DNA from: Vicinamibacterales bacterium
GTDB lineage: Bacteria > Acidobacteriota > Vicinamibacteria > Vicinamibacterales > UBA2999
Direction of reading: 5' to 3'
DNA length: 64,000 nucleotides
Assembly: GCA_050247255.1 (NCBI GenBank)
Contig: JBFWUM010000002.1
Coordinates: 79,488-143,487 of the forward strand
Positions 16,083 through 20,528 of the stretch are shown in pieces; position 1 is the first letter of the stretch; the number at the start of each line of letters is the position of its first letter. The position numbers were made by a program, and so were the translations under genes. The notes under the pieces were generated by a model. That model saw nothing but the letters and a program-made list of their open reading frames with translations, was not told where the DNA came from and made no database searches.

Positions 16083-17192
16083 ATGTGGAGCGGATTCCTG
16101 CGCCGGCTCGCGATGTCGCTGCGTTTCCGGGGCGGTTTCGCGTCGGCTGCCGACAGCGCCGCCGTGCTGCGCCGCCTGGAGGCCATCGATGCGCGGCTTG
16201 ACGCATTGGGCAGCCGGCAGCAGGAGCTGCGCGCGGCCGTCGTTGAGCTGCGGAAGGCGCAGCGCCACCTGGCGACGCGCGACGATGTGAGCCGGGCGGG
16301 CCGGCTGGTCGAGGAGTCCCACCGCGACCAGGCGAAGCTGCTGGGCGCCGTGCGGCGCGACGGGCGCCGCGAGCGGCAGCAGCTCGATCGCGTCGGCAGC
16401 CAGGTCGAGGCGCTGCTCCGGCGCCTGTTCCTCGAGCCCGACGATGTGACGGGCGCGGCCCGTCTGCAGCGCCAGCGCTTCGGGGTGTTCTCGCAGAACG
16501 GGGAGGATGGCCTGATCCTGGCGCTGACGGGCGCCATCGGCCCGGGCGACCGCCGGTTCGTCGAGATCGGCTGCGCCGACCATGGCTGGAACACCGGGTT
16601 CCTCGCGGAGGAATGCGGGTGGACCGGGTTGATGGTCGACAGCGACGAGGCGGCCGTGGCGGCCACAGGGCTGCGGTTCCGCCCGGCCGCCGTGCGCGCC
16701 GTGTCCGCGTTCCTCACGCCGGACACGATGGACAGCTTCCTTCACGAGCAGGGATTTGTCGGCGAGTTCGATCTCCTGAGCATCGACGTGGACGGCAGCG
16801 ACTACTGGCTGTGGGACGCGCTGACGGTCGCCCGGCCGCGGCTGGTCATCGTTGAGTACAACGCGGTGTTCGGGGCGGAACGCGCCGTCGTGGTGCCGTA
16901 CCAAGCGGGGCGCCAGTGGGACGCGGCCGCTCGCGACCATCGCTATTACGGCGCGTCGCTGCGCGCCATGCAACGACTTGGCGTCCGGAAAGGCTACCGG
17001 CTGGTGGCCATCGAGCCGGACAGCGCCAATGCGTTATTGCTGCGCGACGACGTTGCCGGGGGCGTGCCAGCCGTTGACCCCGCCGCCGTGTTTCGGCCGC
17101 AGCGAAAGTACCGGAAGGATGAGCAGCGGCGGGCCGACGACATCTTCGCGGTCTGCGCGACGCGTCAGCTGCCCTTGATCGACGTGCCCTGA
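16083..17192 (+). CDS. Coiled-coil N-terminus + FkbM-like class I methyltransferase-fold domain protein
   Basis: 369 aa. The N-terminal ~100 aa are heptad-like (LRRLEAIDARLDALGSRQQELRAAVVELRKAQ). Then come GVFSQNGEDGLIL...RFVEIGCADHGWNTGFLAEECGWTGLMVDSD and LLSIDVDGSDYW. Confidence 0.55.
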   Translation: MWSGFLRRLAMSLRFRGGFASAADSAAVLRRLEAIDARLDALGSRQQELRAAVVELRKAQRHLATRDDVSRAGRLVEESHRDQAKLLGAVRRDGRRERQQLDRVGSQVEALLRRLFLEPDDVTGAARLQRQRFGVFSQNGEDGLILALTGAIGPGDRRFVEIGCADHGWNTGFLAEECGWTGLMVDSDEAAVAATGLRFRPAAVRAVSAFLTPDTMDSFLHEQGFVGEFDLLSIDVDGSDYWLWDALTVARPRLVIVEYNAVFGAERAVVVPYQAGRQWDAAARDHRYYGASLRAMQRLGVRKGYRLVAIEPDSANALLLRDDVAGGVPAVDPAAVFRPQRKYRKDEQRRADDIFAVCATRQLPLIDVP

Positions 17193-17884
17193 AACCTGGC
17201 GACATACTCTCCCAACCTGCCCGCGGCTTCCCGTTCGAGGTGCGGCGGCATCTTGCGGTTGGCGGGGCTCGTCGCCGCCACCGGTTCCCATTCGCCAGCA
17301 ACCGCTCGTGTGATGGCCTCGGGGAGAACCGCCAGTTGCGTCTCGTAGAGACGCTCCCCCAGATCGATCAGCGTGTCGTCGTCGTGGACGGGAACCTCCT
17401 GCTTCAGGAGCACGCGCCCGGCATCGACCCGCTCGTCGATCAGGTGCGCGGTGACCCCCGGGGGAATGCCGTTCAGAATCGACCAGAGCAGGGCGTCGAG
17501 GCCCCGGCACTCGGGAATGAGCCCGGGGTGAAGGTTGATGATGCCAATCTCGAACCGATCGATGACGGGCCGCTTCAGGATTCGCGCGCCGCCCACGATT
17601 CCAAGCTGGGGCGCGTCCTCCTGTAAGAGGCGGAGGACTTCGTCGCCGCTGTGCGGGCTGACCGTATAGGGGATGCCGAGCCTGGAGGCCACGTCGCGCG
17701 GGTGAGCAAGGTGAACCGGGCGAAGGCGCGTCCTGACCGTCGCGGCAGGGATGTTCAGCGGAATGGGGTCAGCCGCGACGACGCGGGTGACCTTGACCCC
17801 GGCGAGATACAGCCGCGTCAGGATGTCAACGGTCTTCCGGTGGGGGAAGTTGTAGCCGAGGACGACCGTGCGCGGTGTGGGCAT
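17165..17884 (-). CDS. Formyltransferase, PurN-like single-domain
   Basis: ATG 17884 (MPTPRTVVLGYNFPHRK). IINLHPGLIPECRGLDALLWSILNG and HLIDERVDAG match the Formyl_trans_N catalytic region. The track ORF start at 17947 would swallow the promoter region. Confidence 0.8.
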   Translation of the reverse strand: MPTPRTVVLGYNFPHRKTVDILTRLYLAGVKVTRVVAADPIPLNIPAATVRTRLRPVHLAHPRDVASRLGIPYTVSPHSGDEVLRLLQEDAPQLGIVGGARILKRPVIDRFEIGIINLHPGLIPECRGLDALLWSILNGIPPGVTAHLIDERVDAGRVLLKQEVPVHDDDTLIDLGERLYETQLAVLPEAITRAVAGEWEPVAATSPANRKMPPHLEREAAGRLGEYVARFQGTSIKGS

Positions 17885-17951
17885 GCGAGGAAGACGTGCG
17901 ATCTTAGCGTGTTCGCCCTGCCGTGTCGGAGCGGGCCGGGGCTCCAACCAG

Positions 17952-17980
17952 TTGACAACAAGGCCAGACCCCGCTCTAAT
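17952..17980 (+). promoter_or_regulatory. Sigma70-like promoter of the long glycan operon (-35 TTGACA, 17-nt spacer, -10 TCTAAT)
   Basis: TTGACA at 17952-17957 and TCTAAT at 17975-17980. It lies in the only sizeable intergenic region of the window (17885-18058), 79 nt upstream of the regulator start. Confidence 0.5.
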
Positions 17981-17985
17981 TGAGC

Positions 17986-18000
17986 GTTCATCACATGAAC
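17986..18000 (+). promoter_or_regulatory. Candidate operator: perfect palindrome GTTCAT-cac-ATGAAC at the predicted transcription start
   Basis: It begins 6 nt downstream of the -10 hexamer. A second inverted repeat, GGTCAC-N9-GTGACC, lies at 18024-18044 in the same leader. Confidence 0.4.
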
Positions 18001-18058
18001 AATCGGCGGTTCGCCGTCCGGCTGGTCACGCCCTCGCTGTGACCGAGAGGCACGGAGT

Positions 18059-18694
18059 GTGCCCACCATCTCCAACGATCAGTACGATCGCCAGATCCTT
18101 CAAGCCATCGCCTCCGGCCGGCCGCTGACCCAGCGGCGGCTGTCGGGCGAGCTCGGGGTCGCGCTTGGACTCACCAACCTCCTGATCCGAAGGCTGGCGA
18201 CCAAGGGCTACATCCGGGTCACCGGACTGGGCACGCGCCACGTCCAGTACCTGATGACGCCGGCCGGATGGGAGGCGCTCGGCCGGGCAACCCGCGCCTC
18301 GCTGGAGAACACCATTCGCCTCTATACCGAAACCCGCGAGCAGATCCGAGCCGGACTCTCCGAGGTGGCGCGGCGCAGCGCCGCCGATGCGGACGGCGCC
18401 GACGGGGTCGTCCTGTATGGTGCGGGAGACGTGGGGGAGATCGCCTACGTCAGCCTGCAGCGGACCGATCTGCGCGTGGTTGGCGTGATCGACGACCGCC
18501 GCCGCGGCAGGTTCTTCGACCTGACCATCCGCCCGTCAGAATGCCTGCAGCCGGACGGGCTCGACGGCGTGCCCTACTCGTACGTGATCATCGCCAGCGT
18601 CCGCCATGCCGACGCCATCCAGGCGCGGACCGATGCGCTCAACATCCCCAGGAACCGGGTCGTTCACATAGCCCACGTGGGGTCACATGCGTAA
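18059..18694 (+). CDS. Winged-helix (MarR-like, EPS-associated) transcriptional regulator fused to a Rossmann/CoA-binding-like domain (Rex-like architecture)
   Basis: GTG start with GAGAGG 8 nt upstream. The N-terminus QILQAIASGRPLTQRRLSGELGVALGLTNLLIRRLATKGYI is a wHTH. The C-terminus VVLYGAGDVGEIAYVSLQRTDLRVVGVIDD is a GxGxxG Rossmann. Confidence 0.75.
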   Translation: MPTISNDQYDRQILQAIASGRPLTQRRLSGELGVALGLTNLLIRRLATKGYIRVTGLGTRHVQYLMTPAGWEALGRATRASLENTIRLYTETREQIRAGLSEVARRSAADADGADGVVLYGAGDVGEIAYVSLQRTDLRVVGVIDDRRRGRFFDLTIRPSECLQPDGLDGVPYSYVIIASVRHADAIQARTDALNIPRNRVVHIAHVGSHA

Positions 18695-20528
18695 TCGCTT
18701 CTATCTTGCCGCCGACCTCGTCCTGATCTGGTTCGCCGCGCTGGCGGCGTTCGTGCTCCGGTTCGACCTGCGGTTCGAGGCCTACCGGCAGGAGTTCGTC
18801 TTCTTCGGCGTCGCCGCCATGGTCGCCAAGCCGGTGGCGTTCCTGGCGGCCGGCGTCTACCGGCGCTACTGGCGCTACGCGTCGCTGCCCGACCTGGTGC
18901 TGCTGCTCGGCGCGACAACGGCCGGGTCCCTGCTGGTGCTGCTGGCCCTCGTCGCCGGTCTGTGGACCGGGATGCTGCCGTCGTTCTCGCGTTCGGTGGT
19001 CGTGCTCGACGGCCTGCTGACCTTCATGCTGATCGGCGGCGCGCGGGTCGCGTCGCGCGTCATCTCGGAATCGCGGCGCCGCCACGAACACGGCGACGGC
19101 GGCCGGCGCATCGTGATTGCCGGCGCCGGCGCGGCAGGGGTCATGGTCGCGCGCGACCTCGAGCGCAACCCGCAGCTCGGCATCGAGGTCGTCGGGTTTC
19201 TCGACGACGACGCCGCCAAAGCGGGCAAGCGGATCGGCCCGGCCTACGTGCTCGGTCCGCTCGCGGCGCTGGATCGGGTGGCGGCGAAGTACGGCGTGGT
19301 CGAGGTTGTCATCGCCATGCCGACGGCCTCGGGCGCCACGATTCGCGCGCTCGTCGAGCAGGCGCGGGCGCTGAAGCTGGCCTCCAAGGTGATTCCCGGC
19401 GTGTTCGAGCTGGTCGGTGGCCAGGCAACGGCCAAGCGGCTGCGCGAGGTTCAGATTGCCGACCTGTTGCGCCGCAATCCGGCCCGCCCGCCGTCTCGAG
19501 CCAGCGAACACGTCGAAGGGCGGACGGTGCTGGTGACCGGCGCCGGCGGCTCGATTGGCCATGAGATCTGCCGTCAACTCGCGGTGTGGCGGCCGCGCCG
19601 GCTGGTGATGCTGGGACACGGCGAGAACAGCCTGTTCGAGGCGCGGGCCGCCCTGGCCGCCGACTATCCCGATCTGCACGCGGTCACCGTCATCGCCGAC
19701 ATCCGCGACGAGGGGCGGCTGGGTCGGATCTTCCGCGAGTTCGCCCCGGACGTGGTGTTTCATGCGGCCGCCCACAAGCATGTGCCGCTGCTCGAGCAGA
19801 ATCCGGAGGAGGCGTTCACCAACAACGCCATCGGCACCTGCAACGTCGTGCGCGCGGCGATCGCCGCCGGGACGCCGTCGCTGGTCTTTATCTCGACCGA
19901 CAAGGCGGCAACGCCGGTCAACCTCCTGGGCGCGTCGAAGCGGCTGGCGGAGGAAGTGGTGCGGCAGGCGGCTGCGCGCTTCGGCCGCCGGTTTGTCGTC
20001 GTCCGCTTCGGCAACGTGCTCGGCAGCCGCGGCAGCGCGGTGCCGATCTTCCAGCAGCAGATCGCCCGCGGCGGCCCGGTCACCGTCACCGACCCCGAGA
20101 TGAAGCGCTTCTTCATGACCATTCCCGAAGCCGCCCACCTGGTACTCGAGGCTGCGGCGATGGGCAGGGGCGGCGAGCTGTTCGTCCTGCGCATGGGCGA
20201 GCCCGTCCGGATCGTCGACCTGGCCACCGATCTGATCCGCTTGTCGGGCGCCGACGACGTGCCGATTGCCTACACCGGCCGGCGACCCGGTGAGAAGCTC
20301 GAGGAAGTGCTGTGGGAAGACGGCGCTGACATCGCCCCGACCGAGCACCCGGACATCCTGGCCGTCCGCGAGCCGGACCTCGGCGACGCGATCGACTGGG
20401 TCGCCGCCGCCGAGCACCTGGCCCGGATCGCGGCGCAGGGGCCCGCGGACGTCCTCCGCGCCGAGCTCGGCCGGTATCTCCCGACCTTCGTGCGCGGGGC
20501 AGGCGCGCCGGCGGTTCCCGAATCCTGA
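18687..20528 (+). CDS. Membrane-anchored polysaccharide biosynthesis protein CapD/WbpM/PglF family (UDP-GlcNAc 4,6-dehydratase type)
   Basis: 613 aa. It has N-terminal TM segments, then IVIAGAGAAG and VLVTGAGGSIG Rossmann motifs, STDKAATPVNLLGASKRLAE and VVVRFGNVLGSRGS. Confidence 0.9.
   Translation: MRNRFYLAADLVLIWFAALAAFVLRFDLRFEAYRQEFVFFGVAAMVAKPVAFLAAGVYRRYWRYASLPDLVLLLGATTAGSLLVLLALVAGLWTGMLPSFSRSVVVLDGLLTFMLIGGARVASRVISESRRRHEHGDGGRRIVIAGAGAAGVMVARDLERNPQLGIEVVGFLDDDAAKAGKRIGPAYVLGPLAALDRVAAKYGVVEVVIAMPTASGATIRALVEQARALKLASKVIPGVFELVGGQATAKRLREVQIADLLRRNPARPPSRASEHVEGRTVLVTGAGGSIGHEICRQLAVWRPRRLVMLGHGENSLFEARAALAADYPDLHAVTVIADIRDEGRLGRIFREFAPDVVFHAAAHKHVPLLEQNPEEAFTNNAIGTCNVVRAAIAAGTPSLVFISTDKAATPVNLLGASKRLAEEVVRQAAARFGRRFVVVRFGNVLGSRGSAVPIFQQQIARGGPVTVTDPEMKRFFMTIPEAAHLVLEAAAMGRGGELFVLRMGEPVRIVDLATDLIRLSGADDVPIAYTGRRPGEKLEEVLWEDGADIAPTEHPDILAVREPDLGDAIDWVAAAEHLARIAAQGPADVLRAELGRYLPTFVRGAGAPAVPES

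What the first reader, a model, noticed from the sequence alone, without database searches (positions are those of the whole stretch)
17885..18694. Rex-like (wHTH + Rossmann) regulator as first gene, with a palindrome on its own promoter
The only real intergenic region in the window carries TTGACA-N17-TCTAAT (17952-17980). It is followed immediately by the perfect palindrome GTTCAT-cac-ATGAAC (17986-18000), at the predicted TSS, and by a second inverted repeat GGTCAC-N9-GTGACC (18024-18044). The first ORF combines a MarR/EPS-type winged helix with a C-terminal GxGxxG Rossmann domain (VVLYGAGDVGEIAYV...VVGVIDD), the architecture of the redox sensor Rex. Inference: an autoregulated repressor that gates the whole operon in response to a dinucleotide or nucleotide-sugar ligand. 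A weak divergent promoter (CCGACA-N17-TAAGAT on the minus strand, 17929-17901) may serve the formyltransferase gene.
Basis: partly seen in the sequence, partly recalled or inferred. Interest (0 to 1): 0.6.

Follow-up and report, generated by a model that had tools for sequence, protein, structure and literature searches.

The report
Sugar-coat operon repressor with nucleotide sensor
The first gene of a 45-kb sugar-polymer operon in a soil Acidobacterium encodes a DNA-binding protein fused to a small nucleotide-binding domain. Its binding site, a 15-base palindrome on its own promoter, is conserved in relatives across the phylum, so this is very probably a self-controlled switch for surface-sugar production; the signal molecule is unknown.

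Summary
The 211-aa ORF (18059-18694) has three parts: a winged helix of the MarR_EPS type, a 42-residue helix, and a roughly 90-residue mini-Rossmann domain with a conserved GxGxxA-E...DD fingerprint. The best solved-structure matches of that domain are Rex, CAC2185 and the PglF/WbaP 'CoA_binding_3' domains.

The palindrome is best written GTTCA-N5-TGAAC.
- It occurs three times in the 4.46-Mb genome, always on the promoters of this gene and its one paralog.
- It sits 4-7 nt after the -10 in 24 of 30 homolog loci.
- It also precedes short, bona fide MarR_EPS genes.

Autorepression through this operator is therefore strongly supported by comparative evidence. It has not been shown biochemically.

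The protein is not a Rex family member. It has a different wHTH and a different operator, and a canonical Rex gene lies elsewhere in the genome. The ligand is open: uridine nucleotide or nucleotide-sugar, or NAD(H).

Its right arm belongs to a conserved JUMPstart/ops-like leader box plus hairpin that also heads other polysaccharide operons. The divergent promoter is unsupported.

Verdict: a new variant of a known kind, of moderate interest.

The parts
17952..17957 (+). -35 hexamer TTGACA
   Evidence: A TTGAC(A)-type -35 hexamer stands 17-18 nt before the -10 in most of the homolog promoters listed.
17975..17980 (+). -10 hexamer TCTAAT (family consensus nnnAAT)
   Evidence: The strict scanner did not call it. 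The predicted TSS is near 17987; this is inferred, not mapped.
17986..18000 (.). Operator palindrome GTTCA-N5-TGAAC, overlapping the predicted transcription start
   Evidence: It is one of only three sites in the genome, all at promoters of family genes. It is present in 24 of 30 homolog loci and in further phylum loci, including short MarR_EPS genes. Background sites elsewhere are mostly intragenic, and none has the promoter layout.
18024..18044 (.).
   Evidence: One search confirms it is present. The left arm is absent in orthologs. The right arm overlaps the conserved leader box.
18037..18063 (+). JUMPstart/ops-like leader: the box CTGTGACCGAGAG followed by the hairpin GGCAC-GGAGT-GTGCC (or GCAC-GGA-GTGT). 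It overlaps the start codon.
   Evidence: It is conserved downstream of the operator in all 25 operator-bearing loci tabulated. The stem covaries: 4.5 bp against 2.4 bp when the arms are permuted, 0 of 2000. Copies also stand at G000 C1:21879 and on contig C75 without an operator. It resembles the E. coli rfb JUMPstart. There is no Rfam hit.
18059..18694 (+). Regulator gene, 211 aa: wHTH (residues 6-66), long helix (68-109), mini-Rossmann domain (116-203)
18687..20528 (+). The first enzyme gene, a membrane PglF/CapD-type UDP-GlcNAc 4,6-dehydratase. Its ATG overlaps the regulator's stop by 8 nt.
   Evidence: Its own CoA_binding_3 domain shows weak similarity to the regulator's C-domain.
17165..17884 (-). 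Divergent formyltransferase gene. It is not part of the conserved unit.
   Evidence: The upstream neighbour differs among orthologs.

Best explanation
The gene encodes a one-component transcription factor. Its N-terminal MarR_EPS-type winged helix, dimerised through the long helix, binds the 15-bp palindrome GTTCA-N5-TGAAC. The two half-sites are one helical turn apart.

The palindrome starts 5 nt after the -10 hexamer and so covers the transcription start. The bound dimer therefore blocks RNA polymerase at its own promoter. Because the regulator is the first gene of a co-directional array of at least 45 kb (a pseudaminic-acid-type glycan cluster), it represses the whole operon with itself.

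The C-terminal mini-Rossmann domain carries a conserved GxGxxA-E loop and an acidic beta2 end. It binds a nucleotide-containing ligand that changes DNA affinity. My first guess for the ligand is a uridine nucleotide or nucleotide-sugar, as for the related WbaP/PglF accessory domain; NAD(H), as in Rex, is the second.

Once transcription starts, a separate JUMPstart/ops-like box plus hairpin in the 5' leader probably recruits an RfaH/UpxY-like NusG paralog, which carries RNA polymerase through the long operon.

Shown here: the fold, the operator's genome-wide specificity and conservation, and the operon content. Inferred: binding, the sign of regulation, the ligand, and antitermination.
For: Protein
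- HTH_24 hit, E 2e-7.
- The MarR_EPS model TIGR04176 is covered at positions 3-102 of 105.
- The family is large and conserved: 502 hits, and 446 clusters at 50% identity with E<=1e-10.
- The full-length AF2 model has pLDDT 94.1 and pTM 0.81.
- C-domain Foldseek matches: Rex 5zz5, E 3.3e-4, TM 0.59-0.65; CAC2185 (2g6t), TM 0.70; 3nkl, TM 0.62; WbaP accessory domain (8t53), TM 0.67.
- The family profile hits the Rex sequence at E 0.01.
- The fingerprint is conserved: G121 in 62 of 66, G123 in 55, A126 in 59, E127 in 64, D145 in 55.

Operator
- All three genomic sites lie at the two paralogs' promoters.
- 24 of 30 loci carry one or two perfect sites 4-7 nt after the -10. Tandem sites are spaced 19-20 nt, start to start.
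- In other genomes the sites lie next to the regulator gene. Genomes without the family have only background sites with no promoter layout.
- Bona fide short MarR_EPS genes (141-156 bits) carry the same site 31-56 nt upstream and share the invariant HTH and wing residues Q25, R26, G37, N40, Y64, T67 and G70.
- Extra promoter-type sites without an adjacent regulator gene exist in G030 and G013, as expected for trans targets.

Ligand lead
- The WbaP accessory domain binds UMP, UDP, UTP and UDP-Gal (PMC10942596).

Leader element
-.
- The genome encodes two NusG paralogs.
Against: - There is no biochemical or transcript evidence.
- Six of 30 close loci lack the site. In those the regulator is not the first gene, and the promoters of their operons were not examined.
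- More distant phylum members (L048-L053) show no perfect site within 350 nt.
- No Pfam model for a nucleotide-binding domain reaches significance on the C-domain.
- The domain is a truncated Rossmann fold, so it could be mainly an oligomerisation module.
- The annotated GTG start lies 1 nt after GGAG and inside the leader hairpin, so the exact start codon is uncertain.
Confidence: 0.72

Rival explanations
1. True Rex-type redox sensor. The C-domain binds NADH and NAD+, and the NADH/NAD+ ratio releases the repressor, tying glycan synthesis to redox state.
For: Rex is the top PDB fold match of the C-domain and the only non-wHTH profile hit among the top matches by sequence (E 0.01). The domain has a GxGxxG/A loop and an acidic beta2 end. 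The operon contains many NAD(P)-dependent dehydratases and oxidoreductases.
Against: No Rex Pfam or NCBIfam model hits. The domain lacks the second half of the Rex Rossmann fold and the C-terminal swapped helix. The operator differs from the Rex box. A canonical Rex wHTH gene exists elsewhere in the genome. The equally good fold matches to the WbaP/PglF domains point to uridine nucleotides.
Confidence: 0.2
2. The C-terminal domain is only a dimerisation or tetramerisation module, as the WbaP accessory domain partly is. The protein would then be a constitutive autorepressor with no small-molecule input, or one controlled by protein partners.
For: The short MarR_EPS proteins work with the same operator without this domain. 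The WbaP accessory domain forms the dimer interface (PMC10942596). Tandem operators at 19-20 nt suggest higher-order assembly.
Against: The glycine-rich loop, E127 and D145 are conserved at 83-97% across members that are 30-70% identical. That is unexpected for a purely structural module.
Confidence: 0.15
3. The protein is an activator or anti-silencer rather than a repressor, or the palindrome is bound by another factor.
For: No expression data exist, and some MarR-family proteins activate.
Against: The site lies downstream of the -10, across the predicted start, and a second copy lies further downstream. This is the classic repressor geometry. The site follows the wHTH domain in both the long and the short forms and is missing from promoters in genomes without the family.
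Confidence: 0.08

Closest known systems
MarR family EPS-associated transcriptional regulator (NCBIfam TIGR04176, MarR_EPS)
   Same: The N-terminal 105 residues align end to end with the model and with bona fide members. The HTH and wing residues are invariant. Both sit at the head of polysaccharide loci. Both have the identical upstream palindrome GTTCA-N5-TGAAC.
   Different: The score is 38.9 bits against a cut-off of 88. The protein is twice as long because of the fused mini-Rossmann domain. I found no experimental work on the family.
Rex, the redox-sensing repressor (e.g. PDB 5zz5, 7wb3, 3wg9, 1xcb)
   Same: The order of parts is the same: wHTH, then a Rossmann-type domain with a GxGxxG/A loop and an acidic beta2 end. 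Rex is the best fold match of the C-domain. Both bind a palindromic operator on target promoters.
   Different: The wHTH belongs to a different family: there is no PF06971 hit. A 42-residue connecting helix is present. The Rossmann domain is truncated and lacks the swapped C-terminal helix. The operator is not the Rex box (TTGTGAA-N6-TTCACAA, quoted from my own knowledge). The genome has its own Rex-type gene.
CoA_binding_3 accessory domain of WbaP-type phosphoglycosyl transferases and PglF/WbpM dehydratases (PF13727; PDB 8t53, 3nkl)
   Same: The mini-Rossmann fold is similar, TM 0.62-0.67. There is weak sequence similarity to the domain in the adjacent PglF-like gene. Both occur in a glycan-pathway context. 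The WbaP domain binds uridine nucleotides and UDP-sugar and is regulatory (PMC10942596).
   Different: Here the domain is fused to a DNA-binding domain, not to an enzyme. PF13727 does not hit the protein.
E. coli JUMPstart/ops leader with RfaH (Rfam RF01707), for the second conserved element only
   Same: Both lie in the 5' leader of long polysaccharide operons. Both have a box of the CTGT(T)AAGCCAGGGG type followed by a short GC hairpin with a G-rich loop. The paralog's leader is identical to the E. coli rfb JUMPstart in 22 of 26 aligned columns. NusG paralogs are present.
   Different: The Rfam model does not hit. The loop is GRA or GNRA, not GGTA. No factor binding has been shown.

Membership tests
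Rex (redox-sensing repressor) | Rex-type N-terminal wHTH (Pfam PF06971, Put_DNA-bind_N) | tested here: not met
   No hit at E<=1 to 10. The same model finds a different gene in this genome, on contig C58 at E 2.8e-18.
Rex (redox-sensing repressor) | C-terminal NAD(H)-binding Rossmann domain (PF02629-type) | tested here: inconclusive
   There is no Pfam hit. Against that, Rex is the best fold match (E 3.3e-4, TM about 0.6), and the family profile hits the Rex sequence at E 0.01. The domain is shorter than that of Rex.
Rex (redox-sensing repressor) | Rex operator box (TTGTGAA-N6-TTCACAA; quoted from my own knowledge) | tested here: not met
   The conserved operator is GTTCA-N5-TGAAC.
Rex (redox-sensing repressor) | DNA binding controlled by the NADH/NAD+ ratio | not testable with these tools
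   This needs binding assays.
MarR_EPS (NCBIfam TIGR04176) | Score above the curated cut-off of 88 bits | tested here: not met
   The score is 38.9 bits, although it covers model positions 3-102 of 105. The short neighbours score 141-156 bits.
MarR_EPS (NCBIfam TIGR04176) | Conserved HTH and wing residues, and the same cognate upstream palindrome | tested here: met
   The invariant residues Q25, R26, G33, G37, N40, G50, Y64, T67 and G70 are shared. GTTCA-N5-TGAAC lies upstream of both the long and the short forms.
MarR_EPS (NCBIfam TIGR04176) | Location in exopolysaccharide or glycan loci | tested here: met
   It heads a Pse-type glycan operon. The genes downstream in homolog loci look, on reading their translated N-termini, like glycan enzymes and transporters (no family search was run on them).
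Pfam PF22674 (C2185-like_N) | A significant match to the model | tested here: inconclusive
   The precomputed tables list a weak hit. The local scans and the genome search find none. The fold matches CAC2185 (2g6t) with TM 0.70 and rmsd 2.0.
JUMPstart/ops (Rfam RF01707), for the leader element | A match to the covariance model | tested here: not met
   No Rfam hit at E<=1 in 11 loci.
JUMPstart/ops (Rfam RF01707), for the leader element | A leader of polysaccharide operons, with a short hairpin and a specialised NusG paralog in the genome | tested here: met
   Two RfaH/UpxY-like NusG paralogs are present. Binding was not tested.

The most novel reading that the evidence does not exclude
This would be the first family of transcription factors that reads the uridine-nucleotide or nucleotide-sugar pool through a WbaP/PglF-type accessory domain. 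A MarR_EPS repressor would have captured the regulatory domain of the pathway's own enzymes. Initiation of long glycan operons would then be gated by precursor or by-product supply (UMP, UDP, UDP-sugar or CMP-sugar), while an ops-like site handles elongation. Together they would form a two-checkpoint circuit for surface polysaccharides in Acidobacteriota.
Probability: 0.3. Interest if true: 0.7.

Novelty: new variant of a known kind. Interest (0 to 1): 0.52.

Why it matters
Acidobacteriota are abundant soil bacteria. Their exopolysaccharides matter for soil aggregation and survival, yet almost nothing is known about how their glycan operons are controlled.

This work gives a concrete, testable regulatory unit:
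- a protein family with hundreds of sequence clusters;
- its probable operator, GTTCA-N5-TGAAC;
- a small predicted regulon;
- a candidate ligand-sensing domain related to one recently shown to bind uridine nucleotides in WbaP.

It also assigns a probable DNA site to the uncharacterised MarR_EPS family (TIGR04176). Finally, it adds one more phylum-level example of JUMPstart/ops-like leaders.

Tried and rejected
- Rfam scan of 11 promoter and leader loci: no family at E<=1.
- Genome search with PF22674: nothing found anywhere, controls included.
I used the genome search instead.
There is therefore no TSS or expression evidence.
- Literature searches for TIGR04176, MarR_EPS and acidobacterial NusG paralogs found no functional study.
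- The listing of cluster members gave no source names.
- The full-length fold search was muddled by the domain arrangement: Rex aligned over 197 columns but with rmsd 15. I re-ran it on the C-domain alone.
- Rejected: the second inverted repeat as an operator. Its left arm is not conserved.
- Rejected: GTTCAT-N3-ATGAAC as the motif. Positions 6 and 10 vary.
- Rejected: the divergent promoter as part of the unit. The hexamers are weak and the upstream gene is not conserved.
- Rejected: a fixed PglF or WbaP partner gene. The downstream genes vary.
- The degenerate leader-box pattern is only modestly enriched over its reversed control (30 against about 19). However, 12 of the 30 hits are the identical 15-mer.

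Full report
**1. The observation**

- TTGACA lies at 17952-57, followed by 17 nt and TCTAAT at 17975-80.
- The perfect palindrome GTTCATCACATGAAC lies at 17986-18000.
- GGTCAC-N9-GTGACC lies at 18024-44.
- The weak minus-strand hexamers are also present.

The strict sigma-70 scanner reports no promoter here, because TCTAAT has C at position 2. The promoter call therefore rests on conservation (section 4).

The ORF 18059-18694 (GTG start) gives a 211-aa protein. An identical protein is on record from a soil metagenome contig, where the gene calls also show this 174-nt gap as the largest in 11 kb. The window has 69% G+C. The one related genome record that carries a name is an uncultured Acidobacteriota MAG.

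**2. The protein**

Sequence searches gave the following.
- Pfam finds only HTH_24 on residues 7-53 (E 2e-7). MarR_2 scores below its threshold.
- NCBIfam gives MarR_EPS (TIGR04176) over model positions 3-102 of 105. The score is 38.9 bits against a cut-off of 88.
- No Rex model hits in either library.
- The family is large. There are 502 hits in the 90%-clustered database, mostly 203 aa, named 'MarR family' or 'hypothetical'. There are 446 clusters at 50% identity with E<=1e-10, and most of the best 150 listed span both domains.

AlphaFold2 on a 66-sequence alignment gives pLDDT 94.1 and pTM 0.81. The model has three parts:
- a winged helix, residues 6-66;
- one long helix, residues 68-109;
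- a small beta-alpha-beta domain, residues 116-203.

I folded the C-domain alone (pLDDT 91) and compared it with the PDB.

| PDB match | Scores |
|---|---|
| Rex, 5zz5 | E 3.3e-4, 24% identity; TM 0.58-0.65 over all Rex entries listed |
| CAC2185, 2g6t (the protein behind Pfam PF22674) | TM 0.70, rmsd 2.0 |
| PglF/WbpM-type N-domain, 3nkl | TM 0.62 |
| WbaP accessory domain, 8t53 | TM 0.67 |

The family profile also reaches the Rex sequence at E 0.01.

The fingerprint is well conserved: G121 in 62 of 66 sequences, G123 in 55, A126 in 59 (G in this protein), E127 in 64 and D145 in 55.

Family membership fails:
- the wHTH belongs to a different family;
- there is an extra long helix;
- the Rossmann domain is truncated;
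- the genome encodes a canonical Rex-type wHTH elsewhere, on contig C58 (E 2.8e-18).

**3. Context**

The regulator's stop overlaps by 8 nt the ATG of a membrane PglF/CapD-type dehydratase. After that gene, all on the + strand to the end of the window, come:
- a Gfo/Idh/MocA oxidoreductase;
- PseB-like and PseC-like genes;
- a GNAT fusion;
- NeuB/PseI;
- amidotransferase and methyltransferase genes;
- two cytidylyltransferases;
- a flippase;
- AsnB-type enzymes;
- radical-SAM, MBOAT and GT4 genes.

Earlier notes on this genome say the same.

**4. The operator**

Written as GTTCA-N5-TGAAC, the palindrome occurs exactly three times in the 4.46-Mb genome, against about 0.86 expected. One copy is here. 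The other two stand in tandem on the promoter of the single paralog, at C2:179401-179946, which is 34% identical.

Among 30 homolog loci from relatives, 24 carry one or two perfect copies. Each begins 4-7 nt after a -10 hexamer, which follows a TTGACA-like -35 at 17-18 nt. Tandem copies are 19-20 nt apart, start to start. In the six loci without a copy, another gene runs straight into the regulator, so the regulator is not the first gene.

Genome-wide counts in other genomes agree.
- The site or sites next to the regulator account for 1 of 1 in G033, 2 of 2 in G070, 1 of 2 in G030 and 3 of 5 in G013.
- Three genomes without the family have 0, 3 and 2 sites. Three of those five lie inside coding frames, and none has the promoter layout.
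- Two extra promoter-type sites without an adjacent regulator gene look like trans targets. One is G030:C5:838397, before a glycosyltransferase-like gene. The other is G013:C47:57572, which has the same -10, operator and leader box.

The strongest evidence comes from the short proteins. Short proteins of 110-124 aa from other acidobacterial families are bona fide MarR_EPS, at 141-156 bits. They carry the same palindrome 31-56 nt upstream. They share the invariant HTH and wing residues Q25, R26, G37, N40, Y64, T67 and G70 with the long form. The site therefore follows the winged helix, not the operon content or the Rossmann domain.

A caveat: more distant long-form members (L048-L053) show no perfect site within 350 nt.

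The geometry fits a MarR-type dimer acting as an autorepressor. The half-sites are one helical turn apart, and the site covers the predicted +1. Binding itself is inferred.

**5. The ligand**

The ligand cannot be settled here. There are two leads.
- NAD(H), because Rex is the top fold match.
- Uridine nucleotides or nucleotide-sugars. The equally similar WbaP accessory domain (PF13727) was shown to bind UMP, UDP, UTP and UDP-Gal and to act as a regulatory and dimerising domain (PMC10942596). The neighbouring PglF-like enzyme carries that domain and shows weak similarity to the regulator's C-domain.

I rank the uridine or nucleotide-sugar reading slightly higher because of the pathway context. 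The genes downstream of the regulator vary between loci (dehydratases, NeuB, ABC transporters, GTs, flippases), so a general nucleotide signal is more plausible than one specific sugar.

**6. The second inverted repeat**

Its left arm is not conserved. Its right arm, GTGACC, lies in a conserved leader element: the box CTGT(A/G)A(G/C)(T/C)(G/C)A(G/C)(A/G)GG followed by a 3-6-bp GC hairpin with a GRA or GNRA loop.

- The stem covaries. There are seven inner-stem types. The mean stem is 4.5 bp, against 2.4 +/- 0.35 bp when the 3' arms are permuted (0 of 2000). The sequences are related, so this overstates the independence of the evidence.
- The element also heads a Wza/ABC-2 export operon (C1:21879) and another locus on contig C75, neither with the GTTCA operator.
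- It occurs in relatives that lack the regulator.
- It closely resembles the 3' half of the E. coli JUMPstart/ops sequence. I confirmed that sequence to be exact in E. coli, between galF and rfbB.
- The paralog's leader is identical in 22 of 26 columns. The C1 copy beats 1999 of 2000 shuffles. The window's own copy is weaker, with 96 of 2000 shuffles reaching its score.
- Rfam's model does not hit.
- Besides housekeeping NusG, the genome encodes two RfaH/UpxY-like NusG paralogs that are very similar to each other.
- Earlier unchecked notes of this scan report ops-like sites with NusG paralogs in Acidobacteriota and other phyla. I treat these as leads only.

The likeliest reading is an antiterminator loading site that is independent of the regulator.

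**7. Verdict**

The finding is real and its core interpretation holds. This is an autoregulated MarR_EPS-type repressor fused to a Rex/CoA_binding_3-like nucleotide-sensing domain, at the head of a Pse-type glycan operon. It is a new variant of a known kind: a one-component regulator in which a MarR-type DNA-binding domain is joined to a Rossmann sensor.

It is not a Rex. The signal it senses, the sign of regulation and the TSS remain to be tested.

Noticed in passing
window 18037-18063; also G000 C1:21879 (+), contig C75 (-) and C2:179327 (+): A conserved JUMPstart/ops-like leader, a box followed by a covarying GC hairpin, heads at least four polysaccharide operons in this genome. Two of them lack the GTTCA operator. 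It resembles the E. coli rfb JUMPstart but is not hit by Rfam.
   Followed up: partly
G000 C2:179270-179946 (L032, L059), about 36 kb beyond the end of the window: A 34%-identical paralog of the regulator has two tandem operators 20 nt apart and its own leader box. It heads another glycan-type operon. The shared half-sites imply cross-regulation between the paralogs.
   Followed up: partly
G000 C11:11893-12171 (-) and C123:3450-3728 (+): Two RfaH/UpxY-like NusG paralogs, very similar to each other over about 175 residues, are present. The housekeeping NusG is on C73, after tRNA-Trp and secE. The near-duplicate may reflect the 6.5% contamination or strain mixture of the assembly.
   Followed up: partly
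window 18054-18061: The annotated GTG start lies 1 nt after GGAG and inside the 3' arm of the leader hairpin. Orthologs use a TTG or GTG 5-6 nt after GGAG. The true start codon, or the mode of initiation, is uncertain.
   Followed up: partly
L054-L057, L062 (short MarR_EPS genes in other acidobacterial families): The operator ends only 2-13 nt before the ATG, with no room for a Shine-Dalgarno sequence. These short regulators are probably translated from leaderless or near-leaderless mRNAs.
   Followed up: no
L063 (G030:C5:838397) and L064 (G013:C47:57572): Promoter-type operator sites without an adjacent regulator gene. One stands before a glycosyltransferase-like gene 13 kb from the regulator. 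The other has the same TCTAAT-GCATT-operator-leader-box layout as this window's clade. Both are probable trans targets.
   Followed up: partly
L019, about 20-90 nt upstream of the regulator start (G001:C39): A tandem 8-nt repeat (CACCTAAG, about six copies) sits directly upstream of a family member that is not the first gene of its operon.
   Followed up: no
L070 (G022:C3, around 58223): An intergenic cluster of a different repeated palindrome (CGTTCGTGCCAGGCACGAACG-like) produced a chance hit to the operator pattern. It may be another regulator's site array.
   Followed up: no
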